Assembly: GCA_964610245.1 (NCBI GenBank)
Contig: CAZSVK010000032.1
Coordinates: 1 to 21,035, forward strand
Source of the DNA: an uncultured bacterium
GTDB lineage: Bacteria > Muiribacteriota > UBA6191 > JACPRK01
Length of the DNA: 21,035 nucleotides
Reading direction: 5' to 3'
Positions 6,567-20,666 of the stretch are shown in pieces. Both the position numbers and the translations under genes were made by a program. Numbering within the stretch: the stretch's first letter is position 1; each line of letters starts with the position of its first letter. The notes below the pieces were generated by a model. The model was not told where the DNA came from. It saw nothing but the letters and a program-made list of their open reading frames with translations, and searched no databases.

Positions 6567-6573
6567 AGCCGAC

Positions 6574-8592
6574 GTGAGCAAGAAGCCTTTCGCCAACGAG
6601 TCGCTGACCATCGTGATTCCCGCCTACAACGAGGAGGCGTCGCTCGAGACGGTGTTCCGGGAGGTCCGGGAGCACGCTGCCTTGCTGGTGGGCCGACTCG
6701 AGATGATCGTGGTGGACGACGGCTCGACCGACGGTACCGGCGAGGTGGCCGCTCGCCTCGCCCGGGAGCACCCCTCCACGCGGGCCTTTCACCATCTGCG
6801 CAACCAGGGCAGCGGGCAGGCGATCCTGACCGGCGCGCGCCAGGCCCGGACCGCGCTGGTGATGTACGTGCCCGCCGACGGACAGTTCCATCTGCCGGAG
6901 CTGGCGACCTACCTGGAGGCGGCGCGCCGCGGCCAGGTCGTCATGGGGGCTCGGCCTGAGCGGCCCGACTACTCGGCGTTCCGCCGGCTGGCGTCGCGGG
7001 TGTTCCTGCGTCTGGCCAACGCCGTGCTCGGGACCGACTTCGCGGACCTCAACTGGGTGCACCTGTGGCGCCGCGAGGTCTTCGAAGACACCACGCTCAG
7101 AGCGCGAGGCGTGGCCTTCCTCGCCGATCTGGTGGCCCAGGCGCTGGCCCGCGGCATGTCGGTGGTCCAGGTGCCCTCGCTGCAGCAGCCCCGTCGGGGC
7201 GGCCGCGCGAACGGGACCCGGCCGGCGGTGATCGCGCTGGCGGCGTTCGAACTCGGCCGCATCTGGCTGCGCTCTCGCCGCCGCCTGGCCCCCCGGATGC
7301 GCCCCGGCCGAGGAGTTCTCCAGAGCTATCTCGGTGACTTCTGGTGGCCGGGCGGGCGTCACCGGACCGGCTCCGCCACGGCCTCGGGCAGGGGCCAGAC
7401 GGTGCTGCCCAGGTTGGAGGAGGTCGAGCTGGCGCCGGTGATCCGGGCCCCCTGGATGGACTCGGAAGACCGCCTGCTCCTGCCGATCGGCGTGGCGGTC
7501 GAGCCGATGCCCGAGGGGGCCGAGGTGCTGGCCCGGGTCGAAGGCAGGCCGGTGCTGGTGAAGGAAGAGGCCGGCCTCCGCTTCCTGTTCGACGCCGAGC
7601 AGGCCGCTGCCTGGCGACTGACCGAGGCCTTTCTCTGCCGCCGCAGACCGCTTGCGGCCTGGCTCCCTCCCGGCTACATCTCGCTGCTGCCGGGTCCTGT
7701 GCGGCTGGCGCTCCACCGGCTCTCGACCCTTGGGCGTTCGCCTCGCACGGGCCTGGCCGTGTGGCCCGCCGACCCGTCGGTCGAGTGGCTCAGGTGGGCG
7801 CACCTTCAGGCCCGGGGCTCCCGCGGCGAGGACCGGCAACCGCTTCCCTTCTGGCCCGAGGGGAAGCGCTGGGCCCTGGTGGTGACGCACGACGTCGACA
7901 CGGTCGAGGGGCTGGGCTCCGTCCCCATCGTGGCCGATACCGATCGCGAGCTGGGCTTCCGCCCCTGCTGGTACGTGACCGGAGAGGTGGCTCGCGCGGG
8001 TCTCTCTCAGCTCGACGGGCTGGTGGCTCGCGGTCACGAGCTGGGCCTCCACGGGGATCGACACGACCTGCGGCTGGCCTATCTGCCGCGCCCGGAGATC
8101 GAGCGCCGGCTCGAGACCTGTGCCGACCTGATCTCCAGGTGGAAGATGCGCGGCTACCGGTCGCCCGGTCTTCTGATGACGCGCCGCCTCGCTGGGGTCG
8201 TGGCGCGCTTCTTCGAGTACGACAGCTCGGTGCCGGACAGCGACGTCGCCAGCCCCGCGGGCGCGATTCGAGGCTGCGGCACGGTGTTCCCGTTCGCGCG
8301 CCCCGAGGGCGGGCTCGAGTTGCCGCCGACCCTCCCGCTGGAAGACAAGCTCGCCGCCCTGGGCTACCCCCCGCGAGAGATGCTGGGCATCTGGAGGCAG
8401 AAGATTGATTTCATCCGCAAGGTAGGAGGGATGGCGGTCGTGACCACGCACGCCGAACCCCACCTGGGCGGCTCTCGAGAGTTGCTGGAGGTCTACGCCG
8501 AGTTCCTGGGCGGTCTGGCCGGAGACGCCGACGCCTGGGCGGCCCAGCCCTCCGAGGTGGCGGCCTGGTGGGCCCGCCGGGGAGAACGCTGA
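6574..8592 (+). CDS. bifunctional fusion: N-terminal GT2 polyprenyl-phosphate glycosyltransferase (ArnC/GtrB/DPM1-like) plus C-terminal NodB-type polysaccharide deacetylase (ArnD-like); about 672 aa with a ~220-aa middle region of unknown function
   Basis: GT2 motifs read directly and aligned from memory with E. coli ArnC: LTIVIPAYNEEASL (VSVVIPVYNEQESL), IVVDDGSTDGT (LLIDDGSSDNS), VPADGQFHLPEL (LDADLQNPPEEI), PERPDYSAFRRLASRVF (QNRQDSWFRKTASKMI). The C-terminal LVVTHDVDTVEG...GHELGLHGDRHD is a NodB motif-1/2 pattern of the ArnD RIDVDT type. The start GTG at 6574 is 8 nt after the carbamoyltransferase stop, with GGGAG upstream. An alternative start at ATG 6508 would overlap the previous gene. 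Confidence 0.8.
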   Translation: MSKKPFANESLTIVIPAYNEEASLETVFREVREHAALLVGRLEMIVVDDGSTDGTGEVAARLAREHPSTRAFHHLRNQGSGQAILTGARQARTALVMYVPADGQFHLPELATYLEAARRGQVVMGARPERPDYSAFRRLASRVFLRLANAVLGTDFADLNWVHLWRREVFEDTTLRARGVAFLADLVAQALARGMSVVQVPSLQQPRRGGRANGTRPAVIALAAFELGRIWLRSRRRLAPRMRPGRGVLQSYLGDFWWPGGRHRTGSATASGRGQTVLPRLEEVELAPVIRAPWMDSEDRLLLPIGVAVEPMPEGAEVLARVEGRPVLVKEEAGLRFLFDAEQAAAWRLTEAFLCRRRPLAAWLPPGYISLLPGPVRLALHRLSTLGRSPRTGLAVWPADPSVEWLRWAHLQARGSRGEDRQPLPFWPEGKRWALVVTHDVDTVEGLGSVPIVADTDRELGFRPCWYVTGEVARAGLSQLDGLVARGHELGLHGDRHDLRLAYLPRPEIERRLETCADLISRWKMRGYRSPGLLMTRRLAGVVARFFEYDSSVPDSDVASPAGAIRGCGTVFPFARPEGGLELPPTLPLEDKLAALGYPPREMLGIWRQKIDFIRKVGGMAVVTTHAEPHLGGSRELLEVYAEFLGGLAGDADAWAAQPSEVAAWWARRGER

Positions 8593-9416
8593 TGCCTGGA
8601 AAGAGCTACCAGTTCGACACGGTGGGGGTGCTCTACTCGGGCGGCACCGACAGCACGCTCGCGGCGGTCCTGATGTTGCGCGAGGCCCGCAAGGTCGTCC
8701 TGCTGACGTTCGACCCCGGCTACGTCTTCTTCCTGGCGAACACCAAGGTACACGCGCGGATGCTCGCGGAGCGCTTCGGCGAGGAGAGGGTCGAGCAGCG
8801 CATCATCGACGTCCGGCCGCTCGTGGGCAGGCTGCTCTTCGGCGCCGCTCGGAGCGACTTCGAGAAGTACGCCTTCGGTCTGACCAGCCTGGTCTGTCTG
8901 GGCTGCAGGCTGTCGATGCACGCGGCGGCGATCATCCACCTGCTCGAGACCGGCATTCCGTATCTGGCCGATGGGGCGATCCGTCAACAGTGCGACACGC
9001 CGGAACAGATGGAATCGACCCTGGAGAGCCAGCGGGAGCACTACATGGAGCGCTACGGGCTGGTGCACATGTCCCCTCTCTACGAAGAGGCGCGTTCCGA
9101 CCTGGTGCTGCAGGAGATGGGCCTGGCGGCCTTCCCCGCCCTGAAGAAGCAGTTCATCCTGTACGACACGCAGGCGACCTGCCCGTTCGGAGTGAGTGCC
9201 GACGTTTATGCTCGCATCTTCTACCGGCCCTGGCTGATGGGCGACCGCCGGGAGCGCGACGCCGCCTGCTACCGCGAGGACAAGTACCCGGTGATGGAGC
9301 GCGTCATACGCGAGCACTTCGAGTCGAAGGGGCAGAGCATGGAAGAACTCGTGCGGACCATCCGCGCGACCGTCGAGCGAGATCGGCAGTGGAACTCGCA
9401 GGGAGCGGGCCAGTGA
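8592..9416 (+). CDS. PP-loop ATPase of the adenine-nucleotide alpha-hydrolase superfamily (274 aa); QueC/ExsB-like, or a sugar amidotransferase of the WbpG/PseA type
   Basis: SGGxDS PP-loop motif (VLYSGGTDSTLAAVL) 12 residues from the N-terminus. A Cys pair (LVCLGCRL) is present. Strong RBS GGAGAA 5 nt before ATG 8592, which overlaps the upstream stop (TGATG). Confidence 0.7.
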   Translation: MPGKSYQFDTVGVLYSGGTDSTLAAVLMLREARKVVLLTFDPGYVFFLANTKVHARMLAERFGEERVEQRIIDVRPLVGRLLFGAARSDFEKYAFGLTSLVCLGCRLSMHAAAIIHLLETGIPYLADGAIRQQCDTPEQMESTLESQREHYMERYGLVHMSPLYEEARSDLVLQEMGLAAFPALKKQFILYDTQATCPFGVSADVYARIFYRPWLMGDRRERDAACYREDKYPVMERVIREHFESKGQSMEELVRTIRATVERDRQWNSQGAGQ

Positions 9417-9553
9417 GCGACTTGACGGGGCACCGTCTTCGCGCCCTGTTGCGGTGGCCGCTGGCGGTGTTGCTGATCCCGTTCGGGGTTCTCCTCGGGC
9501 TCTGCGGCCTGCTCGACAACATCTGCCGCGGCCTCGCCGACCGGCGCCGCTGA
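9413..9553 (+). CDS. possible small membrane peptide (46 aa), GTG start overlapping the stop of the PP-loop gene
   Basis: VSDLTGHRLRALLRWPLAVLLIPFGVLLGLCGLLDNICRGLADRRR contains one hydrophobic helix. GTGA overlap at 9413-9416. There is no independent support, and it could be a chance ORF given the high GC. Confidence 0.25.
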   Translation: MSDLTGHRLRALLRWPLAVLLIPFGVLLGLCGLLDNICRGLADRRR

Positions 9554-9564
9554 CCGGCGGACGC

Positions 9565-12500
9565 CTATTCGGGCCGGCCGGAACGCTCGCTCGGTTCCTT
9601 CGGCTGAGGGGGGCCGATGACGGGCACGGTGTCGAGCGAGGGCGCCCCCGGCGAGAGCGGCGGCCGCTGCAGCCTGACGACGCCGAAGCCGCTGGCCACG
9701 CCTCCGAGGCCGAGCAGCAGCTCGTGCTCGTCCAGCGGCCGGATCGCCAGCTTGAATGCCACCTTGGATTCGTACGCGGGAAGCGGATCCGGCAGGACTT
9801 CCATCCGCACGAGGATCCGGCCCTCGGGGGTGAAGCCCAGGAGTCGGTTTCCCTCCACCAGAACGTAGAGGTTACCCTTCGGGCCGCAGGTCATGCGAGA
9901 TAGCGCGGTGACGTCCACGGCCCGCCAGAAGTCGAACTCCCTCCCTTCCGCCGAGAGCACGGCGATACCGCCCCTCCGCTGGGTCGTGACGTAGATCCGC
10001 TGCCCGTCCGGCGAGCTGCAGAGCGACGTCGCGCCGAAGCAGTTCCAGGCGGGCTTCGGCTCGCCGTCGGGCTCGAACCGCAGGATCTTCCCCGACAGAG
10101 AGTCGGCGACCAGCACGGTGGACGAGGCCGCGTCGTAGGCGATCCCGCTGAGCCGGTGCGTCTCGCCGGCAAAGGTGACGAGACGGTTCAATTGCCCGTC
10201 CGGTCGGATGAACAGCAGCCGGCTGGCATAGCAGTCGGCCAGGAAGAGCGTGCCGTCGGGCGCGGTCGCGAGCGAGTAGCCGAAGCGCAGGAAGCCCCGG
10301 GTGGGAGGCAACTCGATCGGCCGGTCCTGCTGGTCTCGCAGCCCCTTCCAGGAGCGCACCGGGGCCCCGTCCAGGTCGAGGCAGAGGAGGGGGGCCCGGC
10401 CGTGGCCCAGCAAGTAAATGCGACCGTTCACAAACGCCATGTCTTGCGTGCGCCCTCCGATTTCGGGCTCGACCCAGTATCGGTACCGGACGCTGGCCAC
10501 CGAAAGTTCCGGCTCCACGACCGGTCTGGCGCGGAAGAGCGCGTTCGCCGGGAGCTTGCGCAGGAACACCTCGGACGGCACCTCGGAGAACCGGTCGAAA
10601 GACGGCGGGCGCCAGGAGAACGAGATCGGGCCGACCGTCGTCCGGGCCGTGGTCGCGCGGGCCGAGAAAGCCTGCCAGCCCTCCGGGAACCACCCGGAGA
10701 GGCCGCACCCTCCGGCGCTCGAGCTGGCCGTGCGCTCCCCGATCGAGAGGATGGCACCGCGGGTCCCGTCGAACCGGAAGTCCCACAGTCCCTCCTGGTG
10801 CAGATAGAGCGCCCCGGTCCACCGGTAACCGCGGTCCGGTTGCAGGGCGATGCCCGGCATGTTCAGGCCCGAGACCAGCAGGTCCGGCGACGTGTTCACA
10901 TCCAGCCCGGAGGACAGATAGAGCCCCTGGAAGGAATGGGCCTCCCGCCGGGAAACGGTGTAGAGGTCGAGTCCGCAACCGCTGCCCGCGGGCCCCTCCC
11001 AGCGCTCGTGCCGTCCGCCGGGAAACGTCTCTTCCAGCAACTTCTGCCACTCCTCCTTGCCCAGGACGTAGCTGACGTCGGACCAGGAAGGGAAGACGGG
11101 AAAGAGGTTCAGACCGAGGGCCGAGACCACGCCGAAGTTGTTCAGGAGGAAGGCGAGGTTGGGAGCCATGCCCATCTGTCCCGTGAGGAACGGATAGCGT
11201 ACGGTCGACTGAGAGACGACAACCTGGCGCTCGGGCGCGAGGTGCGCCGCGGCGCGGAGAAGCTTCTCCTGCGGGGGCATCATCCCGATCTGCGAGCACA
11301 TCCTCACCAGGCTGTGGTGCAGGTCCGAGAACTCGGCGGCGATCAGGGCCAGGAACGCGGCCATCAGGACCAGGCCGCGTCGGCCGGTCGCAAGACACGT
11401 CCAGAGTCTGTCGAGCCCCAAGGCGAGCCAGATGTAGAGCGGCACGATGCCGAGCAGGAAGCGGCGCGCGGCGGCAGCCTCGAAGTGCACGACCAGGGGC
11501 GGGAGAAGCGCCAGGGAGATGAGCGAGACCGTCAGCGCGTCGGTCAGCGTGGAACCAGTCGGCGCGGCGGGGGCGAGCGCTCCTGGGCCGGCTGCGCCGC
11601 GGGGGGGGGCTGGCTGCGGCCGCGTCGGGTCCCGGTGCCCGGCCCGCAACAGAGCGAGCGCCCCGAGCAGGGCCAGCGGCACCAGGCTGCGAGGAAGCGG
11701 CACGAACCCCTCCAGATACGGCTCCACTCCGAGGAAGATGCCGGCAACGTCCGGCACCCGCCGCAGGGCGTGTCCCAGCGCCTCGACCGGGGACATCCCT
11801 GCCGTCGTCATCCTCGTCAACCGCCCGGCGTACAGCTCGAGTGTCGAGGCGTCCTGGACGAAAGGCGAGAAGAGGGCGAGCGTGACCACGAACGTCAGCA
11901 AGCAGCCGAGCATCAGCCGGCCGGGCAACGTCCGGCGTGACGACCAGCATCCCAGGGCCAGGATCGTCAGCAGGATGGGCGGGACGATCCGGAAGGCCGG
12001 ATAGGTATGGAGTCCGGCGCCCAGCATCAGCCCCATGCCCAGGAAGTCGGTCAGCCGTCCGGTCGACAGCGCCCGGACCATGAAGAGCAGCGCGCCGGCT
12101 TCGAACACGGCGGGGTAGATGATGGTGTTGGCCTGTCTGCTGAAGTGGCACAGCGTGGGGTCGACGGCGGCGAGCAGCGCGGCCAGGGCCGCGGGCAGAC
12201 GCCGCGCGAGCCTGCGAAACAGCCAGAACAGGAGCACCGGACAGCAGGCCCCGAGCAGCGCCGCCGGAAGCCGGAAGGCGAGCATCGTGGGGCCGAACAG
12301 GCTGAAGCTGAAGGCGTGCAGATAGAAGAACAGCGCCTCCTCGCCCGGCACGGCCCGATCCAGCACCGGGCCCGGTTGCCACGTGTGATTGAGGATGCCG
12401 GCGATGAGCCCGCCGTTGATTCCCTCGTCGAGGTTGGGCGAGGGCGGCCGGAACTCCAACCAATAGAACCTGGCGAGCAATGCCAGCGCGAAGACCGCCA

Positions 12501-12714
12501 GCGTGATGAGCTGGTCCGCCGAGGAGAACGGCTCGGGTCTCGTCGGTTTCTCTTGCGGCCGAGCCGCGCGGTAGAGCAACACCGCCACCGCCGACATCAG
12601 GCACGCGGCCGGCAGCAGGTTCCCCCGCTCGGAGGGCGCCAGAGCGAGGTTGAGCAGACTGGCCCCCGCCAGCCCGAGAAACACCCATCTTCGTCCTGTG
12701 GAACCCTGGACCAC
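9565..12714 (-). CDS. large GT-C-fold membrane glycosyltransferase (GT39 PMT / GT83 ArnT-like, multi-TM N-terminus with DE loop motif) fused to a PA14-like middle domain and a C-terminal NHL-repeat beta-propeller (1049 aa)
   Basis: GTG at 12714 and TAG at 9565-9567. The N-terminal ~450 aa has more than 10 hydrophobic helices, and PNLDEGINGG sits in the first loop; a DE motif there is the PMT/ArnT hallmark. The middle GYRWTGALYLHQEGLWDFRFDGTRGAILSIGERT is PA14-like. C-terminal repeats LFLADCYASRLLFIRPDG, VLVADSLSGKILRFEPDG, IYVTTQRRGGIAVLSAEG and LYVLVEGNRLLGFTPEG are NHL-like. GGAGG lies 11 nt upstream of the start. Confidence 0.8.
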   Translation of the reverse strand: MVQGSTGRRWVFLGLAGASLLNLALAPSERGNLLPAACLMSAVAVLLYRAARPQEKPTRPEPFSSADQLITLAVFALALLARFYWLEFRPPSPNLDEGINGGLIAGILNHTWQPGPVLDRAVPGEEALFFYLHAFSFSLFGPTMLAFRLPAALLGACCPVLLFWLFRRLARRLPAALAALLAAVDPTLCHFSRQANTIIYPAVFEAGALLFMVRALSTGRLTDFLGMGLMLGAGLHTYPAFRIVPPILLTILALGCWSSRRTLPGRLMLGCLLTFVVTLALFSPFVQDASTLELYAGRLTRMTTAGMSPVEALGHALRRVPDVAGIFLGVEPYLEGFVPLPRSLVPLALLGALALLRAGHRDPTRPQPAPPRGAAGPGALAPAAPTGSTLTDALTVSLISLALLPPLVVHFEAAAARRFLLGIVPLYIWLALGLDRLWTCLATGRRGLVLMAAFLALIAAEFSDLHHSLVRMCSQIGMMPPQEKLLRAAAHLAPERQVVVSQSTVRYPFLTGQMGMAPNLAFLLNNFGVVSALGLNLFPVFPSWSDVSYVLGKEEWQKLLEETFPGGRHERWEGPAGSGCGLDLYTVSRREAHSFQGLYLSSGLDVNTSPDLLVSGLNMPGIALQPDRGYRWTGALYLHQEGLWDFRFDGTRGAILSIGERTASSSAGGCGLSGWFPEGWQAFSARATTARTTVGPISFSWRPPSFDRFSEVPSEVFLRKLPANALFRARPVVEPELSVASVRYRYWVEPEIGGRTQDMAFVNGRIYLLGHGRAPLLCLDLDGAPVRSWKGLRDQQDRPIELPPTRGFLRFGYSLATAPDGTLFLADCYASRLLFIRPDGQLNRLVTFAGETHRLSGIAYDAASSTVLVADSLSGKILRFEPDGEPKPAWNCFGATSLCSSPDGQRIYVTTQRRGGIAVLSAEGREFDFWRAVDVTALSRMTCGPKGNLYVLVEGNRLLGFTPEGRILVRMEVLPDPLPAYESKVAFKLAIRPLDEHELLLGLGGVASGFGVVRLQRPPLSPGAPSLDTVPVIGPPQPKEPSERSGRPE

Positions 12715-12837: not shown

Positions 12838-14214
12838 TCAGATCAGGTCGTGGCTGGGCGACGAGTTCACGAAACCCGCGAGCCGCTTCAGCCCGAGCCA
12901 GGCGTCGACGGGCCTCGACATGACCCTCCCGAGCTGCCGCAGAGCGTAGCCCGGCCGCAGGTAGAACCGGCGGTAGAACTTCTGCTCGGCAGCGAGGGTG
13001 CTGTCGGGCGCCGTGACGGGTCGGAAGGGGAAGAGCGACGATGGCCGGGAGTCGAGCCCCAGCGAGGTGCCGGGCCAGTACTGGAGGCGGGTGACGATGA
13101 CGAAGTCGAGGTCCCAGTCGATGGCGGCGCGGATGCTGGCGTCGATGTCGGAGGGGGTCTCCCAGGGCGTGCCGACGATGAAGAAGCCGCTCAGCTCGAG
13201 GCCCGCGTCGCGCACCTGGCGGACGAGCCTGGGCATCTGCTCGGCGCGGTAGCCCTTCCGCAGGGAGTCGAGCACGAGTTGCGAGGTGCTCTCCAGACCG
13301 ACGTAGAGGCGGCGGCAGCCGGCGCGTCGCATCTCGGCCAGCAGCGAGGGCTCGAGGCAGTCGAGGCGCGAGAGGGCGGTCCATTCGAGGTCCAACCGCT
13401 CGCGCGACAGCAGACGGCAGAGTTCGAGGAGACGCGGCCGGTCGAGCGGCAGCGTGTCGTCCATGAAGCGGAGGTTGCGGACTCCGTGGCGGCCGGCGAG
13501 CAGGCGGGCCTCGTCGAGGATGTTGCCGGGACTGCGGTAGCGCATCTGGCGGCCGTAGGTGCGCGTGCAGAAGACGCAGGCGTGCGAGCAGCCGCGGGCA
13601 CTGAGGGTGACCGCGATCGGGCCCGGGCGCAGCGGCTCGGCGTAGAGCGAGAGGTCGACCAGCGAGTGGTCGGGCAGCGGCAGCCGGTCGAGGTCGTCGA
13701 TGCGGGGCCGCCGCGGGTTGACCACCGGTTGGCGGCCGTCCCGGAAGGCCAGGCCCGGGACCCCGGCGAGCGTCGTGCGGGTGGCGAGGCAGTCGAGGAG
13801 GTCGGCGAAGACGAGTTCGGGCTCGTCCAGGAGCACGACGTGCAAGGGGCAGTGCTCGAGCACGTCGGCCGGAAACTCGGATGGGAGGTAGCCGGTGGCG
13901 CAGACGGTGGCGTGGGGGTGGTCGGAAACCAGCGCGGCGGCGGCGGCGAGGTCGCCCGGGAAGGTCGAGAAGCCCACGGCGAGCACGATGACGTCCGGCC
14001 CGAAGCGCACCGCCTCTCGGCGCACGCCGTCGAGGTCGAGGTCCCGGGCGACGGCGTCGACGACCAGCACGTCGCTGCCCTTCCAGTCGCGGGCGAGCGC
14101 CGCAAGCCCCATCAGCTCCATCGGAGGCATCAGGAAGTTGGGCGCGTAGTACGACGCGGTCCAGCGGCGCATGACGCGCTCCCGGGCCGGTGGATTGAGG
14201 AAGAGGACTCGCAC
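12838..14214 (-). CDS. B12-binding radical SAM enzyme, class B (458 aa); probable methyltransferase or other radical tailoring enzyme
   Basis: N-terminus MRVLFLNPP starts the cobalamin-binding domain. The radical SAM cysteine triad is CSHACVFC (CxxxCxxC). GTG start at 14214 with GGGGAG upstream. Stop TGA at 12838-12840. Confidence 0.85.
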   Translation of the reverse strand: MRVLFLNPPARERVMRRWTASYYAPNFLMPPMELMGLAALARDWKGSDVLVVDAVARDLDLDGVRREAVRFGPDVIVLAVGFSTFPGDLAAAAALVSDHPHATVCATGYLPSEFPADVLEHCPLHVVLLDEPELVFADLLDCLATRTTLAGVPGLAFRDGRQPVVNPRRPRIDDLDRLPLPDHSLVDLSLYAEPLRPGPIAVTLSARGCSHACVFCTRTYGRQMRYRSPGNILDEARLLAGRHGVRNLRFMDDTLPLDRPRLLELCRLLSRERLDLEWTALSRLDCLEPSLLAEMRRAGCRRLYVGLESTSQLVLDSLRKGYRAEQMPRLVRQVRDAGLELSGFFIVGTPWETPSDIDASIRAAIDWDLDFVIVTRLQYWPGTSLGLDSRPSSLFPFRPVTAPDSTLAAEQKFYRRFYLRPGYALRQLGRVMSRPVDAWLGLKRLAGFVNSSPSHDLI

Positions 14215-14271: not shown

Positions 14272-14850
14272 CTACGGTGTCCGGAGCCGCCTCGGCGCGA
14301 CCGGGCGGGCGGGGTTGCCGGCGACGACCGCCCCGTCGGGGACGTCTCGCGTCACGACGGCGCCGGCGCCGACGAGCGCGCCCCGGCCGACGACGACCCC
14401 CGGGAGGATGGTGGCGTTGACTCCGATGCGGGCGCCGCTGCGGACGACCGGGCCCTCGAGGTCCCCGGGGCCGCGGACGGGGTACTTGTCGTTGGCGAAG
14501 ACGACGCCCGGGGCGACGAAGACGTCGTCCTCGAGGACGGTGAACTGGGCGAGGTAAACTCCGGAGTGTATCTTGACCCGATCGCCGACCGTGCAGCCGT
14601 AGTCGACGATGCTGTTGCTCCAGATCGAGACCTGGCGCCCGATGCGGGTCTGCTCGCGAACGACGACGTTGTGCCCGGTCTCGAAGTCGTCTCCGATGAC
14701 GACGTTGGTGTAGAGGACGGTGCCCGAGCGCAGACGGGCCCGGGCGCCGAGCACGCCGGGCACGATCTCGATGGCCCGCGAGGGCCGGTAGTCGAGCAGC
14801 ACGCCGGGCTCGAGCCCCGGATTGGCTTGCCCTTCGCTCACGGGACTCAC
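14272..14850 (-). CDS. hexapeptide-repeat (left-handed beta-helix) acyltransferase (192 aa); sugar N- or O-acetyltransferase of the WbbJ/PglD/QdtC type
   Basis: Repeated [LIV]-G-x-x-x-x hexapeptides (IGRQVSIWSNSIVDYGCTVGDRVKIHSGVYLAQFTVLEDDVFVAPGVVFAND). The GTG start at 14850 overlaps the upstream stop (GTGA). Confidence 0.8.
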   Translation of the reverse strand: MSPVSEGQANPGLEPGVLLDYRPSRAIEIVPGVLGARARLRSGTVLYTNVVIGDDFETGHNVVVREQTRIGRQVSIWSNSIVDYGCTVGDRVKIHSGVYLAQFTVLEDDVFVAPGVVFANDKYPVRGPGDLEGPVVRSGARIGVNATILPGVVVGRGALVGAGAVVTRDVPDGAVVAGNPARPVAPRRLRTP

Positions 14851-15323
14851 GGTTTGCCGGCCCCGGTCCTGGCAGGCGCGGGCGCGGGGGGCTCAGCCTT
14901 GGGAGGGGCCTTGCCGAGCGGGTCGGCGACGCAGGGGCTGGGGAGAAAGCCGGACTGCTTGCGCTCGTCGAGACTGGCCTTGGCGTCCTTCTTCTGCAGG
15001 GCGTCGAGCGCCTCGGCGAGCGGCTTGACCCGGCCCGAGAGCTTGCGGTCGTGGCGGGCGTACCAGAGATAACGCCGCAGGCACTTGGCCTCGTGCCTCA
15101 GGGTCTCGGCCTCCATCTTGATCGCCTTGTCCTCGGCGCCGTGCTTGACCAGCAGCCTCTCGCGCTCGAGCCTGAGCCGGAGCCAGCGCAGCGAGGCCTC
15201 GCAGTCCTTGTCGATCGCGGCGCCGGAATCGGGTAGCGGCTCGTCGGAGGCCGCGGCCGGCCCGGATCCCTGGCAGGCGAGCCCGAGGGCGAGGAGCGCG
15301 GCCAGGGCGAGCGGGCGCGTCAT
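14847..15323 (-). CDS. small secreted or lipoprotein-like protein (158 aa) with a signal peptide, four Cys, a charged helical core and a Pro/Ala-rich C-terminal tail
   Basis: ATG at 15323 overlaps the HEAT-2 stop (ATGA). The signal peptide is MTRPLALAALLALGLACQGS. The tail is FLPSPCVADPLGKAPPKAEPPAPAPARTGAGKP. The stop overlaps the acyltransferase start. Confidence 0.6.
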   Translation of the reverse strand: MTRPLALAALLALGLACQGSGPAAASDEPLPDSGAAIDKDCEASLRWLRLRLERERLLVKHGAEDKAIKMEAETLRHEAKCLRRYLWYARHDRKLSGRVKPLAEALDALQKKDAKASLDERKQSGFLPSPCVADPLGKAPPKAEPPAPAPARTGAGKP

Positions 15324-16720
15324 TGCAGGATCTTCGCGAAGGCGCGCAGCTCGGGGGTCTCGGCGATGGCCACGGTCTTGTTGCGGTAGGCCTGGGCGAT
15401 CGCCTTGCCCATCCGGACGAAGGAGGCGCGCATCTTGGCGCGGTACTGGTCGAGGCCGCTGGTGAGGATCTGGGTCTTCAGCTCGCCGTCGGGGGCGAGG
15501 CTGTGCGAGAGGGAGCGCAGGTAGTCCTGGTAGCGCGTGATCTCGTAGTAGTGGACCATCAGGGCCTTGTCCTTGAGCTCGCCGCGGCGGCAGAGTTCGA
15601 AGCCGTCGACGCCTATCTTGAACAGCAGGCGCGAGAGCGTGGCCTTGACCTCCGCCTCGCGCAGCTCCTGGGCGATGTTGAGGATCTCGCGCTTGAAGGT
15701 GCGCTCGACCTTCTCCCGGACACGGGCCTGGAACTCCTCGTCTTCCGGGGTCGCCTTCGCGGGAGGCGTGGGGATGTAGGGCATGTTGGAGCTGGCGTCG
15801 TTCAGTCCCAGCTCCTGGCGCTGCTTGAGCAGCTCCCGGATGTCGACCCCCTTGGCCGCGAGAATCTCGATCGCCTGCTGGCGCACGGTGGGATCGTTGT
15901 CGTCTATCCGGCGGGTGATGGCCGCGACGGCCCTCTCGCCGGTGCAGTCGGCGAGGCACTTCACGGCCCGGAGGCGAACCCCTTCGTAGGCGTCGCTGGC
16001 GGCGCGCACGAGCAGGTCTTCCAGATCGAGCTTGGAGAGCTGGGCAATGGCGTAGACCGCGCTCTCGCGCATCGCGACCTTGTCGCTGTCGAGCATCGAC
16101 GCGAGGTACTCCTTGACGTGAGGATCGCCGAAGCGGCCCAGCGCCTTGACGACGTTGGAGCGCACCCGGTTGTTCTCGTCGTTGAGGAGCGGTACCAGCA
16201 GCGGGATGTGTCGCTTGTCGCCCAGGTCTTCGAACACCTCGACCGCATTCGCCCGCACGCGGTCGTCTGAGTGGGAGAGGAACCTGCTCGTGTCGGCCAG
16301 CACCGACGGGTCGGTGCACCTCCTCAGATTCGCGAGGATCGACGCGATCTTGACCGTGTCGGTCTCCCGCACCAGTTCGGCCACGAGCTGCCGGCCGGCG
16401 GCCGGCGGAGGAGGCGGAGCGGCCGGCTGCTGCGGCGCGGCCTGGGACCTGGCGACGGCCCCGGCGAGCGCCTCCCGGGAGATGGACTGGGTCTGGCGGC
16501 CGCCCGCATCCATGTAGTTGGCCGCCTTCTTGGCGAGGAAGGCAATGTCGCCGTTAGGTCCGGTGCACAGCTCGTTCACCTTGCGGCGGAGGATCTGCAG
16601 CTCTTGCTGGGTGACGCCGTCGTCGAAGCTGATGCGGGTGACGGTCGTCAGGGCGAGCGTCTGGATCTCCGAATCGGAGTCGGACAGATCCTCGATGATG
16701 CGCTGGATCTTGAGGGACAT
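15320..16720 (-). CDS. HEAT-repeat protein, paralog 2 (466 aa): conserved N-terminal segment, Pro/Ala linker, about 5 PBS-lyase-type HEAT repeats, conserved C-terminal domain of unknown function
   Basis: HEAT-like repeats DDRVRANAVEVFEDLGDKRHIPLLVPLLNDENNRVRSNVVKALGRFGD... are present. The C-terminal motif YYEITRYQDYLRSL is shared with the upstream paralog. ATG at 16720 lies 18 nt after the upstream stop. Confidence 0.75.
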   Translation of the reverse strand: MSLKIQRIIEDLSDSDSEIQTLALTTVTRISFDDGVTQQELQILRRKVNELCTGPNGDIAFLAKKAANYMDAGGRQTQSISREALAGAVARSQAAPQQPAAPPPPPAAGRQLVAELVRETDTVKIASILANLRRCTDPSVLADTSRFLSHSDDRVRANAVEVFEDLGDKRHIPLLVPLLNDENNRVRSNVVKALGRFGDPHVKEYLASMLDSDKVAMRESAVYAIAQLSKLDLEDLLVRAASDAYEGVRLRAVKCLADCTGERAVAAITRRIDDNDPTVRQQAIEILAAKGVDIRELLKQRQELGLNDASSNMPYIPTPPAKATPEDEEFQARVREKVERTFKREILNIAQELREAEVKATLSRLLFKIGVDGFELCRRGELKDKALMVHYYEITRYQDYLRSLSHSLAPDGELKTQILTSGLDQYRAKMRASFVRMGKAIAQAYRNKTVAIAETPELRAFAKILQ

Positions 16721-16738
16721 CGCTTGGCGGAAGGCAGG

Positions 16739-18421
16739 TCAGGCTCCGGCGCGGCTGGCCTGGGCCAGCTCGGCCAGGAGCTTGCGGATTGGCTCGCCCT
16801 CGCGAGGCGGGAGCTGCAGCTGCTGGCGCTGGAGGAGTTCGGCGGCCTGGCGGCCAAGCTGGGTGAAGGAGGCCTTGATCTTCTCTTGCAGGTGTTCGAT
16901 GGCCGAGGTCCGGGTGGCATCCTCGGGATCTCCGCGCTTCACCATGTAGTTCCGGAGGAAGTCCTGATAGCGGAGGACCTCGTAGAAGACGCTGTCGAGG
17001 TTCTCGTGAGTGAGCACGTTGAGCCTGCAGAGCTGGTAGATCTCGGTGCCCAGGCCACGGTAGAGTTCCTCGAGATGGGCGGCCTGCTCCGGGGCCGAAG
17101 GGGCCTTGGCCGGGGCCGCCAGAGGCGCGGGGGCCGGCGCTGCCGGTTCGGGCTTCTCGGGGATCGGCGGCGGGGCGGCGGCCTCGGCGGCCGCGCGCTG
17201 GTTCTGGAGCAACACCTTGATGGCCCGGAGCGCTTCGGCGGCGGCCTCGCAGATGTTGATGTCGAGGTCGTTGAGCATGCGCTTGAGGGCGATGACCACG
17301 GCGCGCGTCGGGAAGCGGGCGAGCGCCTTGGTGGCCCGCAGGCGAACGCCCTCGTACGGGTCGTCGAGCGCGTGCAGGAGCAGCGCCTCGACGAACGGCA
17401 TGTCGATCTTGGAGAGAACGTAGACCGCCGTCTCGCGCATGCTCATCGCCGACTGCGCGAGCATGTCCCGGAGCGTGTCTTCGACCCCGGCGTAGCCCAG
17501 CTTCGCCAGAGCGACCGCGGCGTTACCGCGAGCGCGGTTGTTGCGGTCGGCCAGGCGCGGAACCAGCCAGTCGATGTGATGGTGCGTGCCCAGCCGCTCG
17601 AACACCTCGATGGCGTTGGCTCGAACGCGATCGTCGGCGTGCTCCAGGAGCGATCGTAGTGCGTCCAGGTCGGCGGTGGTGCCCTTTGAGGCGAGCTGGA
17701 TCAGACAGGATGCGATGTAGTAGGTCGGAAGCGGCCGCGTGATCGCGTCGAGCAGCTCGGGCCGCGACAGCGAGCTTGCGTCCGGCAGCGGAGGACCTGC
17801 CGGCTTGGCGGGCGCAGTCGGCGCGGGGGCCGGGCGCGGGGGCCGGGGCGGCAGGCCGGCCACGGGCGGCGCGGCTACCGGCGGGGCGGCCTGCGCGATC
17901 GCGGCTGCGGCCGGTGGGGCGGCAGGGATCGCGACCGGGGCCGGGGCCGGCGCGGCGCTGGGTGCGCCTACCAGCGCCGGCGCCCCGGGCAGGACGACCG
18001 CCGCCACCGGCTGCTGCGGCTCGATCGCGATCGGCTGGAGCGGCGCTACCGGGGCGAGCGTCACGGGTATGACCGGCGACTCGAGTGCCTGCACGAACGG
18101 GATGGGCGTGGCAACCACCGGCGCGGCGATCGGCTCGGGTGAGGGCGTCGCGGGGCCGGCCGGTCCTGCCGGGGCCTCCTGGTCGTGGAGGCATGCCTTG
18201 AAGGCCGAATCGATGTGATTGAAGGCCTTGCGCGCCAGGAATACGACGTCGGGATTGTCCGACGACGACAGCGGCTTGAGGCGGGCCGCGATCTCGCGGA
18301 TCTCTGCGGGAGAGTCGACGATCTGCGGGCTGAGCCGCGTGATGCTCATCAGGGCGAAGGTCTTGATCTGCGGATCGGGATGAGCGAGATCGGCGCAGAT
18401 TTTCGCGAGATTGACGGCCAT
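16739..18421 (-). CDS. HEAT-repeat protein, paralog 1 (560 aa) with a long Pro/Ala-rich low-complexity linker
   Basis: The start is the internal ATG at 18421 (MAVNLAKICADL...), preceded by AGGAG with an 8-nt spacer; the ORF-track start at 18463 lacks an RBS. HEAT repeats DDRVRANAIEVFERLGTHHHIDWLVPRLADRNNRARGNAAVALAKLG... are present. The C-terminal motif FYEVLRYQDFLRNY matches paralog 2. Confidence 0.75.
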   Translation of the reverse strand: MAVNLAKICADLAHPDPQIKTFALMSITRLSPQIVDSPAEIREIAARLKPLSSSDNPDVVFLARKAFNHIDSAFKACLHDQEAPAGPAGPATPSPEPIAAPVVATPIPFVQALESPVIPVTLAPVAPLQPIAIEPQQPVAAVVLPGAPALVGAPSAAPAPAPVAIPAAPPAAAAIAQAAPPVAAPPVAGLPPRPPRPAPAPTAPAKPAGPPLPDASSLSRPELLDAITRPLPTYYIASCLIQLASKGTTADLDALRSLLEHADDRVRANAIEVFERLGTHHHIDWLVPRLADRNNRARGNAAVALAKLGYAGVEDTLRDMLAQSAMSMRETAVYVLSKIDMPFVEALLLHALDDPYEGVRLRATKALARFPTRAVVIALKRMLNDLDINICEAAAEALRAIKVLLQNQRAAAEAAAPPPIPEKPEPAAPAPAPLAAPAKAPSAPEQAAHLEELYRGLGTEIYQLCRLNVLTHENLDSVFYEVLRYQDFLRNYMVKRGDPEDATRTSAIEHLQEKIKASFTQLGRQAAELLQRQQLQLPPREGEPIRKLLAELAQASRAGA

Positions 18422-18506: not shown

Positions 18507-20666
18507 CTATCTCGGCGAGGGGTTGCGCCGGGGCTCGGGGGGCACCTGCAGCTCGCTGCGGCGGCCGCAGATCGAGAGCCACACCCGCGCCTGCAGTAAC
18601 CGCCAGGCCAGCTCCCGGTCGAGCGGATCGGCCGAGGCTCCGGCGGCCGGATCGCGCGGCCAGTGGGTGATCAGCCGATCTCTCAGCCCGACCCAGGTCC
18701 GGAACTGCGCCTCGTGTTTCTGGAGCCGGTCTTCCGACGTAAGAAGGGCCGCCAGCAGCAGGCGGTTGCGCGTCTGCGCCGTCTCGTAGAAGGCCAGCTC
18801 CGCGGCGGGCGGCATGGCGGCGCCCGAGGCGCCCGACACCGGGGCGAGCCACGAGCTGGTGAGCCGTTCGACGGCGTCGAAGGCGCCCATCAGGATCAGC
18901 GTCCTGAGCGCCGCGGAGGCCAGCGCCAGGTCCTGCATCGTGGGCGCGGCCGGCAGCCGGATCCGGGGCGTGAGCGCCAGCGCGTTATCGACGACCTCCT
19001 TGTGCAGGGCGTCGATCGCTCTGCCCTTCAGGTCGTAGCGCGAAAGGGCCCGGAGGGCCAGCCATCCGGTCCGCCAGACCGGATCGCGCGACTGGATCAG
19101 GATCGGGGGCACCTGGCCCTGGAATCGAACGGCGTCGGACGATAGCCTCTCCATGACGCCGGCGACCTTGAACTCGAGCGAGAAAGAGCCGATCAGGGCG
19201 AAGGTGATGGTCTTGAGGCTTGCCTGGGCGGTCATCGCGTCCCAGCTCAGGACCCGGATGTGCTCCGTCAGGAGGAAGAACCTGACGAGCAGCTCTCCGG
19301 CCATGGGCGCTCCTTCCGGCCCGTTGTTGCGGGCGAGGCTCGCCGCGGCCGGCAGGGCCTGAATGATGGCGTTCTGCGCCCGCTTCCAGATCGCGAAGAT
19401 GCGTTCGAGCAGGACCGGCGTCGAGAGCGAGGCCGGGTCGCGCAGATCCTGGGCGTGGCCTTGCTCGGCCTCGGCCCGGAGCGCCTCGATCGTTCGCGTC
19501 GCCTCCGCGGCAGCCTCCCGGGCCTTCTCGAGCAGCTGCTTGCGGTGGGCCTCGGCCGACGGCTCGGGCTCGGGCGTGGCGACCCGGGCGATCGGAGGCG
19601 CCGCGGCAGGAGGCGCGCCGCTCCGCGCGTAGAGCAGGATCCCGGCCGCGAGCACGGTGGCGAGCAGGGCGACCCCCAGGCCTATCATGACCGAGCGATC
19701 CCTTACCGCCGCCGTGGCGATCTGACTCGACCGGGTCGACGTGCGAGGCCTGGGAGCGCGGGTGACGCGCCGGGCGGCTTCGCGGGCGGCGACCGAATCG
19801 GCGCGGATCATCGTGGCCTCGAGCAGGGTCTGGTCGTTCGCCAAATGCTGCAGGGCGGAGATCAACTCGCGTGCGCCGGCAAACCTGTCTTCCGGCGCCT
19901 TGGCCAGGCAGCGGGCGAGGATGCGATCGAACTCCGGGGGGACCCCGCGGCCGAGAGAGGCCAGCGGCGGCACCGGCGACTTCACGTGCTGCTTGAGGAT
20001 CGCCTGGGGCTCGGGTCCGCCGAAGGGGGGTTCCCCCGCGAGACACTCGAAGAGCACGACGCCGAGGGCGTACAGATCGGACGCGGGGCCGGCCGGCTTG
20101 CCCACGATGGTCTCGGGGGCCAGGTAGGCCGGGGTGCCCATCACGAACCCCTTGCGGGTCTGGACGAGCCCCTCGGTGGCCAGGTCTTTGGCGATGCCGA
20201 GGTCTCCGATGAGTGGCCCCCGGTCGACGGAGAGAAAGATGTTCTCGGGCTTGATATCCCTGTGCAAGATGCCCGCGTCGTGAAGCGTGGCCAGGGCGTC
20301 GGCGCAGGCCAGGACAACATCCACGCTCTGCTGAACCGGGAGCGGCCCCTCGCGGTGCAACTTCTCCCTGAGCGTCTTTCCGTGCACCAGCTCGAAGGCC
20401 AGGAACAGGCGGTGCTCCTGCTCTCCGACTTGCAGGACTCGCACGAGCTGGGGGTGCTGCACCCGCGCGGCGAGGATGCCCTCCTGCAGGAAGCGCTTGC
20501 GCGAGGCCTCGTCGAAGGCCAGATCCGACGTCAGGACCTTGAGCGCGACCGGCCTGTCGAGCGAGATCTGGCGGGCCTTGTAGACGATCCCCATGCCGCC
20601 CTGGCCAAGCTTGCCCTCGATGCGGTAGCCGCCGAGAACGGAGCCGGCCGGGAGTTCGTGTCGCAT
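18507..20666 (-). CDS. Hanks-type Ser/Thr protein kinase (719 aa) with one TM helix and a ~380-aa C-terminal, probably extracytoplasmic, domain of unknown function
   Basis: Kinase motifs GQGGMGIVYKARQ (Gly loop), ALK (catalytic Lys), HRDIKPENIFL, DLGIAKD and GTPAYLAPE are present. The TM segment is VMIGLGVALLATVLAAGILLYA. ATG at 20666 and TAG at 18507-18509. Confidence 0.9.
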   Translation of the reverse strand: MRHELPAGSVLGGYRIEGKLGQGGMGIVYKARQISLDRPVALKVLTSDLAFDEASRKRFLQEGILAARVQHPQLVRVLQVGEQEHRLFLAFELVHGKTLREKLHREGPLPVQQSVDVVLACADALATLHDAGILHRDIKPENIFLSVDRGPLIGDLGIAKDLATEGLVQTRKGFVMGTPAYLAPETIVGKPAGPASDLYALGVVLFECLAGEPPFGGPEPQAILKQHVKSPVPPLASLGRGVPPEFDRILARCLAKAPEDRFAGARELISALQHLANDQTLLEATMIRADSVAAREAARRVTRAPRPRTSTRSSQIATAAVRDRSVMIGLGVALLATVLAAGILLYARSGAPPAAAPPIARVATPEPEPSAEAHRKQLLEKAREAAAEATRTIEALRAEAEQGHAQDLRDPASLSTPVLLERIFAIWKRAQNAIIQALPAAASLARNNGPEGAPMAGELLVRFFLLTEHIRVLSWDAMTAQASLKTITFALIGSFSLEFKVAGVMERLSSDAVRFQGQVPPILIQSRDPVWRTGWLALRALSRYDLKGRAIDALHKEVVDNALALTPRIRLPAAPTMQDLALASAALRTLILMGAFDAVERLTSSWLAPVSGASGAAMPPAAELAFYETAQTRNRLLLAALLTSEDRLQKHEAQFRTWVGLRDRLITHWPRDPAAGASADPLDRELAWRLLQARVWLSICGRRSELQVPPEPRRNPSPR

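What the first reader, a model, noticed from the sequence alone, without database searches (positions are those of the whole stretch)
15320..18421. Tandem paralogous HEAT-repeat proteins with a shared, unrecognised C-terminal motif inside a glycan-modification operon
Two adjacent genes encode proteins with the same four-part layout: a conserved N-terminal ~80 aa, a Pro/Ala linker, about 5 PBS-lyase-type HEAT repeats, and a ~100-aa C-terminal domain carrying the motif (F/Y)YE(I/V)xRYQD(F/Y)LR. I could not match that motif to any known family from memory. Cytoplasmic HEAT scaffolds are unexpected between a Ser/Thr kinase and envelope glycosylation enzymes, all co-directional and partly translationally coupled. 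They may organise a membrane-associated complex or be kinase targets. The repeated Pro/Ala-rich segment of paralog 1 (about 17800-18180) is also low-complexity DNA prone to slippage.
Basis: partly seen in the sequence, partly recalled or inferred. Interest (0 to 1): 0.6.

Follow-up and report, generated by a model that had tools for sequence, protein, structure and literature searches.

The report
Conserved tandem HEAT-repeat scaffold paralogs
Two neighbouring genes encode related HEAT-repeat proteins that share a helical end domain matching no known family. They belong to a very rare set of two to four paralogs kept in the same order in a few uncultured bacterial lineages; the function is untested, and a multi-subunit cytoplasmic scaffold is my best guess.

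Summary
Genes at 16739-18421 and 15320-16720 (minus strand) are true paralogs (35% identity, E=2e-45). Both have the same four parts: a 73-aa N-terminal mini-HEAT head, a disordered Pro/Ala tether, a HEAT solenoid, and a 115-140-aa C-terminal helical bundle carrying (F/Y)YE(I/V)xRYQD(F/Y)LR.

The C-terminal domain matches nothing in Pfam, NCBIfam, PDB sequences or PDB folds. In 1.84 billion representative proteins it occurs in only about 45. Apart from short fragments, every hit places it at the C-terminal end of a 430-640-aa protein; every one I read in full has this same architecture.

The family splits into four orthologous clades whose gene order (1-2-3-4) is fixed. Six lineages (38-73% GC, including Riflebacteria) carry all four. 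Wallbacteria, including this window, keep clades 3 and 4, with a transmembrane Ser/Thr kinase upstream and a small secreted protein downstream.

The glycan enzymes downstream (acyltransferase, B12-radical-SAM, GT-C) are specific to this window and are not a property of the family.

My best reading, which is inferred and not shown: a hetero-oligomeric cytoplasmic HEAT scaffold assembled through the C-terminal bundle, and coupled to a kinase in Wallbacteria. It is a new domain and a new variant of a known kind (HEAT scaffolds). Interest is moderate.

The parts
16739..18421 (-). Paralog 1 (560 aa), a clade-3 member of the family. N-domain nt 18203-18421. Pro/Ala linker aa 74-221. HEAT solenoid about nt 17204-17758. 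Second Pro/Ala linker. C-terminal helical domain nt 16742-17092, with the motif FYEVLRYQDFLR at 16952-16987.
   Evidence: ORF. Start codon and Shine-Dalgarno. Pfam HEAT_2 6.5e-19. C-domain HMM E=1.9e-40. Clade assignment. Coordinates.
15320..16720 (-). Paralog 2 (466 aa), a clade-4 member. N-domain nt 16505-16720. HEAT solenoid nt 15812-16396. C-terminal helical domain nt 15323-15748, with the motif YYEITRYQDYLR at 15515-15550. A conserved short motif, PYIPTP (aa 313-318), lies in the disordered second linker.
   Evidence: BLASTP to paralog 1, E=2e-45. Pfam HEAT_2 8.4e-26. AF2 full length pLDDT 87.7. AF2 of the C-domain alone pLDDT 93.8. Coordinates. Orthologues at 64-68% identity in Wallbacteria.
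18507..20666 (-). Hanks-type Ser/Thr kinase (719 aa). It has one hydrophobic segment near aa 325-346 and a roughly 370-aa C-terminal region with no family match. It lies directly upstream of paralog 1. A terminator-like site (18506-18491) and a promoter-like site (18487-18459) sit in the gap.
   Evidence: Pkinase 9.6e-48. Orthologues at 41% identity over the full length sit directly upstream of the pair in Wallbacteria loci L002 and L009. Promoter and terminator scan.
14847..15323 (-). Small secreted protein (158 aa) with an N-terminal signal-like segment, a helical look and two conserved Cys. Its ATG overlaps the stop codon of paralog 2 (ATGA). It is conserved downstream of the pair only in Wallbacteria.
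   Evidence: Sequence. 52-53% identity to the gene after the pair in L001, L002 and L009. No Pfam, NCBIfam or PADLOC hit.
14272..14850 (-). Hexapeptide-repeat (left-handed beta-helix) acyltransferase. Its GTG start overlaps the stop of the small protein gene (GTGA). It is the first of the window-specific envelope-sugar genes, followed by the B12-radical-SAM gene (12838-14214) and the GT-C/PMT_2 gene (9565-12714).
   Evidence: Translation. Hexapep 6.2e-24. Radical_SAM and PMT_2. None of these is found next to the pair in any other locus.

Best explanation
The two genes are subunits 3 and 4 of an anciently duplicated, co-transcribed set of up to four cytoplasmic HEAT-repeat proteins.

Shown:
- Each protein has a 73-aa mini-HEAT head, a disordered Pro/Ala tether of very variable length, a 6-7-repeat near-consensus PBS-type HEAT solenoid, a second tether, and a 115-140-aa helical-bundle domain that matches no described family.
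- The four paralog clades predate the split of the carrying lineages and keep a fixed gene order, with zero-gap or 4-nt-overlap junctions.

Inferred:
- The C-terminal bundles, whose most conserved feature is the hairpin G..(F/Y).LCR ... (F/Y)YE(I/V)L(R/K)YQ(D/E)FLR, join the paralogs into a hetero-oligomer.
- The HEAT solenoids and heads, held on flexible tethers, bind client proteins. The whole would then act as a multivalent cytoplasmic scaffold.
- In Wallbacteria (this window) only subunits 3 and 4 sit at the locus, flanked by a transmembrane Hanks kinase and a small secreted protein. Here the scaffold is probably the cytoplasmic adaptor or substrate of that kinase. T317 in the conserved PYIPTP motif of the disordered linker is a candidate phospho-site.
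- The envelope-sugar genes downstream are a local neighbourhood and not part of the family's core function.
For: - Paralogy and shared layout.
- C-domain folds confidently: pLDDT 93.8 with four helices, the first 50 residues long (longer than the helices it packs against).
- Rarity and fixed architecture: 45 hits in 1.84e9 representatives; apart from short fragments, all hits lie at the C-terminal end of 430-640-aa proteins, and the 26 read in full share the layout. 7 loci in 185,579 species genomes. 3 loci in 241 million metagenome records.
- Four orthologous clades with conserved order 1-2-3-4 in L003, L010, L012, L013, L017 and L018, spanning 38-73% GC.
- Tight junctions in L013: genes at 5517-7151, 7152-8657, 8654-10000 and 10001-11608.
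- Clade 3 is always followed by clade 4.
- Kinase and small secreted protein are conserved around the pair in Wallbacteria.
- The PYI(P/S)TP motif is present in the close clade-4 orthologues P0002-P0004 and falls in the pLDDT<50 segment 311-320.
Against: - No interaction was tested or modelled; only monomer predictions were possible.
- The C-domain is predicted to fold as a self-contained bundle, so it need not oligomerise.
- Its fold is a generic helical bundle and carries no functional signature.
- Neighbouring genes differ widely between lineages: kinase; TPR plus Cu-oxidase_4/PgeF; VWA; Nramp. No client can therefore be named.
- Most contigs are short MAG fragments. Absence of clades 1-2 from Wallbacteria genomes is shown only for this locus.
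Confidence: 0.4

Rival explanations
1. The pair are substrates or adaptors of the adjacent Ser/Thr kinase, and they organise or regulate the membrane enzymes that modify an envelope glycan (acyltransferase, B12-radical-SAM, GT-C, GT2).
For: In the window all of these genes are co-directional, with ATGA and GTGA overlaps running from paralog 2 into the acyltransferase. The kinase is adjacent in 3 of 3 Wallbacteria loci that have upstream sequence, and a GT2-fusion orthologue (41-46% identity) lies within a few kb on the opposite strand in 4 of 4 Wallbacteria loci. A conserved PYIPTP motif sits in a disordered linker. In other lineages the array follows Cu-oxidase_4 (the PgeF/YfiH family, linked to peptidoglycan editing according to the established literature), which is again an envelope context.
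Against: The acyltransferase, radical-SAM and GT-C genes are absent next to the pair in L001, L002 and L009. There, ATP-grasp/alpha-E/transglutaminase genes or a methyltransferase follow instead. Six four-gene arrays have neither a kinase nor a glycosyltransferase nearby. A terminator-like and a promoter-like site separate the kinase from paralog 1.
Confidence: 0.15
2. The pair is a heterodimeric E/F-type lyase-like enzyme, analogous to CpcE/CpcF or NblB. The two HEAT paralogs together would attach, remove or chaperone a cofactor on a target protein.
Against: Scores are far below the family cut-offs (62 bits against 300 for NblB; 24 against 330 for CpcE). Designed consensus HEAT proteins and unrelated eukaryotic HEAT scaffolds score higher, so the similarity is generic to the repeat type. 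No phycobiliprotein or bilin genes occur in any locus. E/F lyases lack the N-head, the tethers and the C-domain.
Confidence: 0.07
3. The proteins are cytoskeleton- or organelle-associated tethers. Mad23 is the precedent: a HEAT plus coiled-coil protein that links magnetosomes into sub-chains. The layout also loosely resembles the TOG-linker-coiled-coil design of polymer regulators. On this view the HEAT domains hold a filament or compartment and the C-domain mediates self-association.
For: The architecture is a HEAT solenoid plus a helical or coiled-coil end domain on disordered tethers. A published precedent shows that a bacterial HEAT plus coiled-coil protein organises an organelle chain and interacts with coiled-coil partners (bioRxiv 10.1101/2025.02.24.639979). 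The same paper lists Riflebacteria among phyla with putative magnetotactic members.
Confidence: 0.13
4. The paralogs act independently as separate adaptors with different clients. The tandem arrangement would then only reflect their origin by duplication.
For: No interaction data exist. The clades have diverged to 20-35% identity. Clade 1 is very variable in length, 528-893 aa.
Against: Gene order and co-occurrence have been retained across lineages whose orthologues are only 35-50% identical and whose GC content ranges from 38 to 73%. Zero-gap and overlapping junctions imply coupled expression.
Confidence: 0.15

Closest known systems
PBS-lyase-type (E-Z) HEAT-repeat proteins: CpcE/CpcF bilin lyases, NblB, MTH187/alphaRep consensus repeats, E. 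coli YibA
   Different: Scores lie far below the equivalog cut-offs for NblB, CpcE and CpcF. The family has an extra N-terminal head, two long disordered tethers and a C-terminal helical domain that none of those proteins has. There is no phycobilisome context. The arrays hold up to four paralogs.
Mad23 of deep-branching magnetotactic bacteria (HEAT repeats plus coiled-coil; links magnetosomes into sub-chains)
   Same: A bacterial cytoplasmic protein that combines HEAT repeats with a helical or coiled-coil interaction module, and that acts as a scaffold through protein-protein contacts.
   Different: No magnetosome genes occur in any locus here. Sequence relationship was not tested. Mad23 is a single gene within a mad/mam cluster, not a fixed array of paralogs.
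Eukaryotic solenoid-hinge-appendage adaptors (AP-complex large subunits) and TOG-linker-coiled-coil proteins (Stu2/XMAP215); this is an architectural analogy only
   Different: There is no evidence of homology beyond the repeat fold. The terminal domain is an all-helical bundle, not a beta-sandwich ear. The sizes are much smaller. No partner subunits (medium or small chains, or tubulin-like proteins) are encoded nearby.

Membership tests
HEAT repeat superfamily (Pfam HEAT_2 / HEAT / HEAT_PBS) | Tandem ~30-40-aa helix-turn-helix repeats scoring above the Pfam gathering thresholds | tested here: met
   HEAT_2 scores 68.4 and 90.5 bits against a cut-off of 27.7. HEAT_PBS scores 40.3 against 20.9 for paralog 2. 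AF2 shows 14 paired helices at 109-303.
E/F-type bilin lyases and NblB (NCBIfam CpcE, CpcF, NblB equivalogs) | Whole-protein score above the curated equivalog cut-off | tested here: not met
   NblB 61.8 bits against 300; CpcE 24.3 against 330; CpcF 23.9 against 220.
E/F-type bilin lyases and NblB | Genomic association with phycobiliprotein or bilin genes | tested here: not met
   None in the window or in about 12 related loci.
Any described family for the C-terminal domain (Pfam-A, NCBIfam, PDB) | A significant sequence-profile or fold match covering the ~115-140-aa domain | tested here: not met
Envelope glycan-modification operon component | Conserved synteny with the glycosyltransferase, acyltransferase and radical-SAM genes across related genomes | tested here: not met
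   rSAM, GT-C and hexapeptide acyltransferase have no orthologue near the pair in L001, L002 or L009 or in any other lineage. Only a GT2-fusion on the opposite strand recurs in Wallbacteria.
Ser/Thr-kinase-coupled module | Kinase gene adjacent to the HEAT genes in related genomes | tested here: inconclusive
   Met in Wallbacteria: window, L002 and L009, 41% identity over the full length. Not met in six four-gene arrays. A kinase lies about 3.4 kb away in L015.
Ser/Thr-kinase-coupled module | Phosphorylation of the HEAT proteins by the kinase | not testable with these tools
   Only a candidate site can be named: T317 in PYIPTP, in the disordered linker.
Mad23-type magnetosome chain scaffold | Sequence homology to Mad23 and location within a mam/mad gene cluster | not tested
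   No Mad23 sequence was available to compare. No mam or mad genes appear in any locus examined.
Known anti-phage defence systems (PADLOC) | Specific match to a defence-system protein model | tested here: not met
   Only repeat-level hits to a 1972-position HEAT-ARM model, and generic kinase-domain hits.

The most novel reading that the evidence does not exclude
The four clades encode the subunits of a previously undescribed hetero-tetrameric (or higher-order) HEAT-solenoid complex. It would be specific to Riflebacteria, Wallbacteria and a few deep uncultured lineages, and nucleated by a new helical assembly domain. It would be a bacterial counterpart, by analogy and not by descent, of eukaryotic multi-subunit solenoid adaptors: a multivalent tether or coat at the cytoplasmic face of the envelope. 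In Wallbacteria it would have been reduced to two subunits and placed under the control of a transmembrane Hanks kinase.
Probability: 0.2. Interest if true: 0.65.

Novelty: new variant of a known kind. Interest (0 to 1): 0.42.

Why it matters
HEAT solenoids are common. A self-contained array of four paralogous multi-domain HEAT proteins is not something I could match to any described system. This array shares a domain with no Pfam, NCBIfam or PDB counterpart and keeps its gene order across genomes from 38 to 73% GC.

If the subunits do assemble, this would define a new bacterial scaffold complex and a new assembly domain in candidate phyla that have almost no experimental biology. The Wallbacteria version would offer a simple test case of a Hanks kinase wired to a dedicated scaffold.

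If they do not assemble, the result is still a clean definition of a new domain family, and a correction: the glycan-operon link is local.

Tried and rejected
- The word-indexed protein search with the C-domain alignment returned only one fragment and wasted one search. The exhaustive representative search did the job instead.
A clade-3-only alignment worked.
- I first read L003 158-787 and L018 3-293 as stand-alone C-domain proteins. I rejected this. Both ORFs are open to the contig edge, and they match clade-1 C-domains best, at 43-62% identity. They are truncated clade-1 genes.
- The AFDB Foldseek library was unavailable.
- The exact-sequence look-up of the window's own contig failed.
- Cluster look-ups gave only 'HEAT repeat domain-containing protein' or 'hypothetical' as names.
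- Taxonomic placement of the L013 lineage through its trigger factor failed. The best identity to anything else was 34%.
- Three literature searches found no description of the family.
- A defence-system role was rejected.
- The lyase reading was rejected on score cut-offs and context.
- I considered the terminal helix (aa 456-465) as a membrane-targeting amphipathic helix and rejected it. It is not conserved as a basic amphipathic helix across clades, and it packs into the bundle at high confidence.
Full report
**What is there.** The window is about 70% GC. On the minus strand it carries a co-directional gene run:
- a Hanks-type Ser/Thr kinase (18507-20666; Pkinase 9.6e-48);
- paralog 1 (16739-18421);
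- paralog 2 (15320-16720);
- a small secreted protein (14847-15323);
- a hexapeptide acyltransferase (14272-14850);
- a B12-binding radical-SAM enzyme (12838-14214);
- a 1049-aa GT-C/PMT_2 protein (9565-12714).

The junctions are as follows. Between the kinase and paralog 1 there is an 85-nt gap holding a terminator-like and a promoter-like site. Between the paralogs the gap is 18 nt. ATGA and GTGA start/stop overlaps lead into the next two genes. Paralog 1 should start at the ATG at 18421: it has a GGAG 8 nt upstream, and all orthologues begin M/V-AVNLAKI.

**Check of the observation.** The two proteins are real paralogs, with 35% identity over 333 aa (E=2e-45) and 32% over the first 73 aa. 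Only the middle of each hits Pfam (HEAT_2, HEAT, HEAT_PBS).

AlphaFold2 of paralog 2, with a 37-sequence family alignment (pLDDT 87.7, pTM 0.51), gives three folded modules joined by two disordered linkers:
- a four-helix N-terminal head (1-72);
- a 14-helix HEAT solenoid (109-303, so 6-7 repeats rather than 5);
- a four-helix C-terminal domain (325-465).

The linkers fall at 77-100 and 311-320. The C-domain predicted alone reaches pLDDT 93.8, with helices at 2-51, 58-80, 86-119 and 129-138. It spans the end of helix 1, the turn and helix 2.

The claim of 'low-complexity DNA prone to slippage' is weak at the DNA level, where only 13-15-nt units repeat 2-3 times. The tether itself is 148 aa with 42 Pro and 40 Ala. 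Its length ranges from about 31 to 154 aa among clade-3 orthologues.

**The C-terminal domain is unrecognised.**
- No Pfam or NCBIfam hit falls in this region.
- A Pfam scan of all 38 aligned C-domains found no family hit by more than three members (best E 0.006).
- A profile search of PDB sequences gave nothing below E 0.05.
- Foldseek against PDB gave a best E of 0.85 and TM<0.5.
- The AFDB library was unavailable.

So the domain is a helical bundle with no specific known relative, within the limits of these searches.

**How widespread it is.** A profile of the C-domain searched exhaustively against 1.84 billion representative proteins found 45 hits at E<=0.001 (33 at E<=1e-10). About a dozen are short fragments. 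In all the others the domain sits at the C-terminal end of a 430-640-aa protein. The 26 I read in full show the same N-head, linker, HEAT, linker, C-domain layout, except one spurious weak hit.

A pattern scan of one genome for each of 185,579 species found seven loci: three Candidatus Wallbacteria, one Candidatus Riflebacteria, one 3.4-kb contig labelled Cloacimonadota, and two unnamed MAGs. A scan of 241 million metagenome records added three more. Sources name the proteins only 'HEAT repeat domain-containing protein' or 'hypothetical'. The window protein's nearest relatives are Wallbacteria proteins at 64-68% identity.

**The pair is part of a conserved array.** Scanning all fetched loci with the C-domain HMM shows tandem family members everywhere. 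A neighbour-joining tree of 26 members resolves four orthologous clades. Paralog 1 belongs to clade 3 and paralog 2 to clade 4.

Six lineages carry all four clades in the fixed order 1-2-3-4:
- L003 (Riflebacteria);
- L010;
- L012;
- L013 (also seen as L004 and L014);
- L017;
- L018.

Their GC content spans 38-73%. Junctions in L013 are zero-gap or 4-nt overlaps.

Two apparent 'stand-alone C-domain' genes, at the starts of L003 and L018, are truncated clade-1 genes cut by the contig edge.

Clade 3 is followed directly by clade 4 in every locus where the contig allows the check. Wallbacteria (window, L002, L009) have only clades 3 and 4 at this locus, with the kinase directly upstream.

Clade 3 is the most conserved. 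Its C-domain hairpin is nearly invariant.

**Neighbourhoods.**
- Within Wallbacteria, the kinase (41% identity over the full length) and the small secreted protein (52-53%) flank the pair. A GT2-fusion gene recurs on the opposite strand within a few kb (41-46%).
- The acyltransferase, radical-SAM and GT-C genes of the window have no counterpart in the other Wallbacteria loci. There, ATP-grasp/alpha-E/transglutaminase genes or a methyltransferase follow the pair.
- In L010, L012 and L013 the four-gene array is the tail of a tight run of GAF-GGDEF, (TatD), TPR and Cu-oxidase_4 (PgeF/YfiH family) genes, with overlapping junctions.
- In Riflebacteria a VWA protein follows the array.
- In L017 an Nramp transporter follows it.

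The only invariant is the array itself.

**Interpretation.**

Shown:
- a rare family found only in this one architecture;
- a new C-terminal helical domain;
- four ancient paralog clades with fixed order and coupled junctions;
- coupling to a kinase and a secreted protein in Wallbacteria only.

Inferred (confidence about 0.4):
- The paralogs assemble through the C-domain into a hetero-oligomeric cytoplasmic scaffold. Its solenoids and heads, on flexible tethers, bind clients.
- In Wallbacteria this scaffold is the adaptor or substrate of the transmembrane kinase.
- The motif PYI(P/S)TP lies in the disordered second linker of paralog 2 and of its close orthologues P0002-P0004. It gives a concrete candidate site, T317.

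Rival readings are given with their evidence in the structured fields:
- a glycan-operon regulator;
- an E/F-lyase-like enzyme;
- a Mad23-like or TOG-like cytoskeletal tether (for the Mad23 precedent);
- independent adaptors.

None is excluded outright, but each lacks conserved context.

**Novelty and verdict.** HEAT scaffolds are a known kind. The new elements are the C-terminal domain, the head-tether-solenoid-tether-bundle layout, and the conserved four-paralog array. Three literature searches found no description of the family. I rate it a new variant of a known kind, of moderate interest. It is a well-defined unknown in candidate phyla, with a directly testable assembly hypothesis but no functional evidence yet. 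The glycan-operon framing is a local feature of this genome only.

Noticed in passing
window 2596-3597 (-), directly upstream of the flotillin-like gene at 606-2591 (-): A membrane protein with a weak YqiJ_N hit (an NfeD-like partner of the SPFH/Band_7 protein) carries a long His/Asp-rich repeat, (HDLHADVD)n, of about 110 aa between its first hydrophobic segment and the rest of the protein. This could be a metal-binding or low-complexity insert.
   Followed up: partly
L010 3074-11284; L012 2647-14095; L013 2935-11608: In three lineages whose orthologues share only about 35-40% identity, the four HEAT paralogs form the tail of a tight TPR, Cu-oxidase_4 (PgeF/YfiH family), HEAT x4 run with overlapping junctions. 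GAF-GGDEF and HD-GYP genes (and TatD in L010 and L013) lie upstream. The reason for the PgeF link is unexplained.
   Followed up: partly
window 14847-15323 (-); L001 3195-3806; L002 6095-6718: The small secreted protein after paralog 2 is conserved only in Wallbacteria (52-53% identity). It has a signal-like N-terminus, two conserved Cys (DKDC...EAKCL) and no family match. It may be a periplasmic partner of the kinase's extracytoplasmic region.
   Followed up: partly
window 18507-19600 (-): kinase residues ~350-719: The roughly 370-aa region after the kinase's single hydrophobic segment has no Pfam or NCBIfam match. It is nevertheless conserved with the Wallbacteria orthologues, where 41% identity extends over the full length.
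   Followed up: no
L012 10376-14095: The clade-4 gene of this array contains an assembly gap (a run of X in translation). It also has an exceptionally long Pro-rich second linker with repeated PPGPPPVEKQRSA units.
   Followed up: no
L013 20266-21606: The trigger factor of the organism carrying this four-gene array has at most 34% identity to any other protein in the 5.8-billion-sequence collection. This suggests a very poorly sampled, deep lineage.
   Followed up: no
window 6442-8592 (+): A GT2 domain is fused to a C-terminal region of about 450 aa with no Pfam hit. Orthologues at 41-46% identity lie on the opposite strand near the HEAT pair in all four Wallbacteria loci. It is the only envelope-related gene whose proximity is conserved.
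   Followed up: partly
L015 8154-11656: One locus pairs a clade-2-like member (551 aa) with an unrelated 609-aa HEAT protein that lacks the C-domain. A Ser/Thr kinase and an FHA-sigma54 activator lie within about 4 kb.
   Followed up: no
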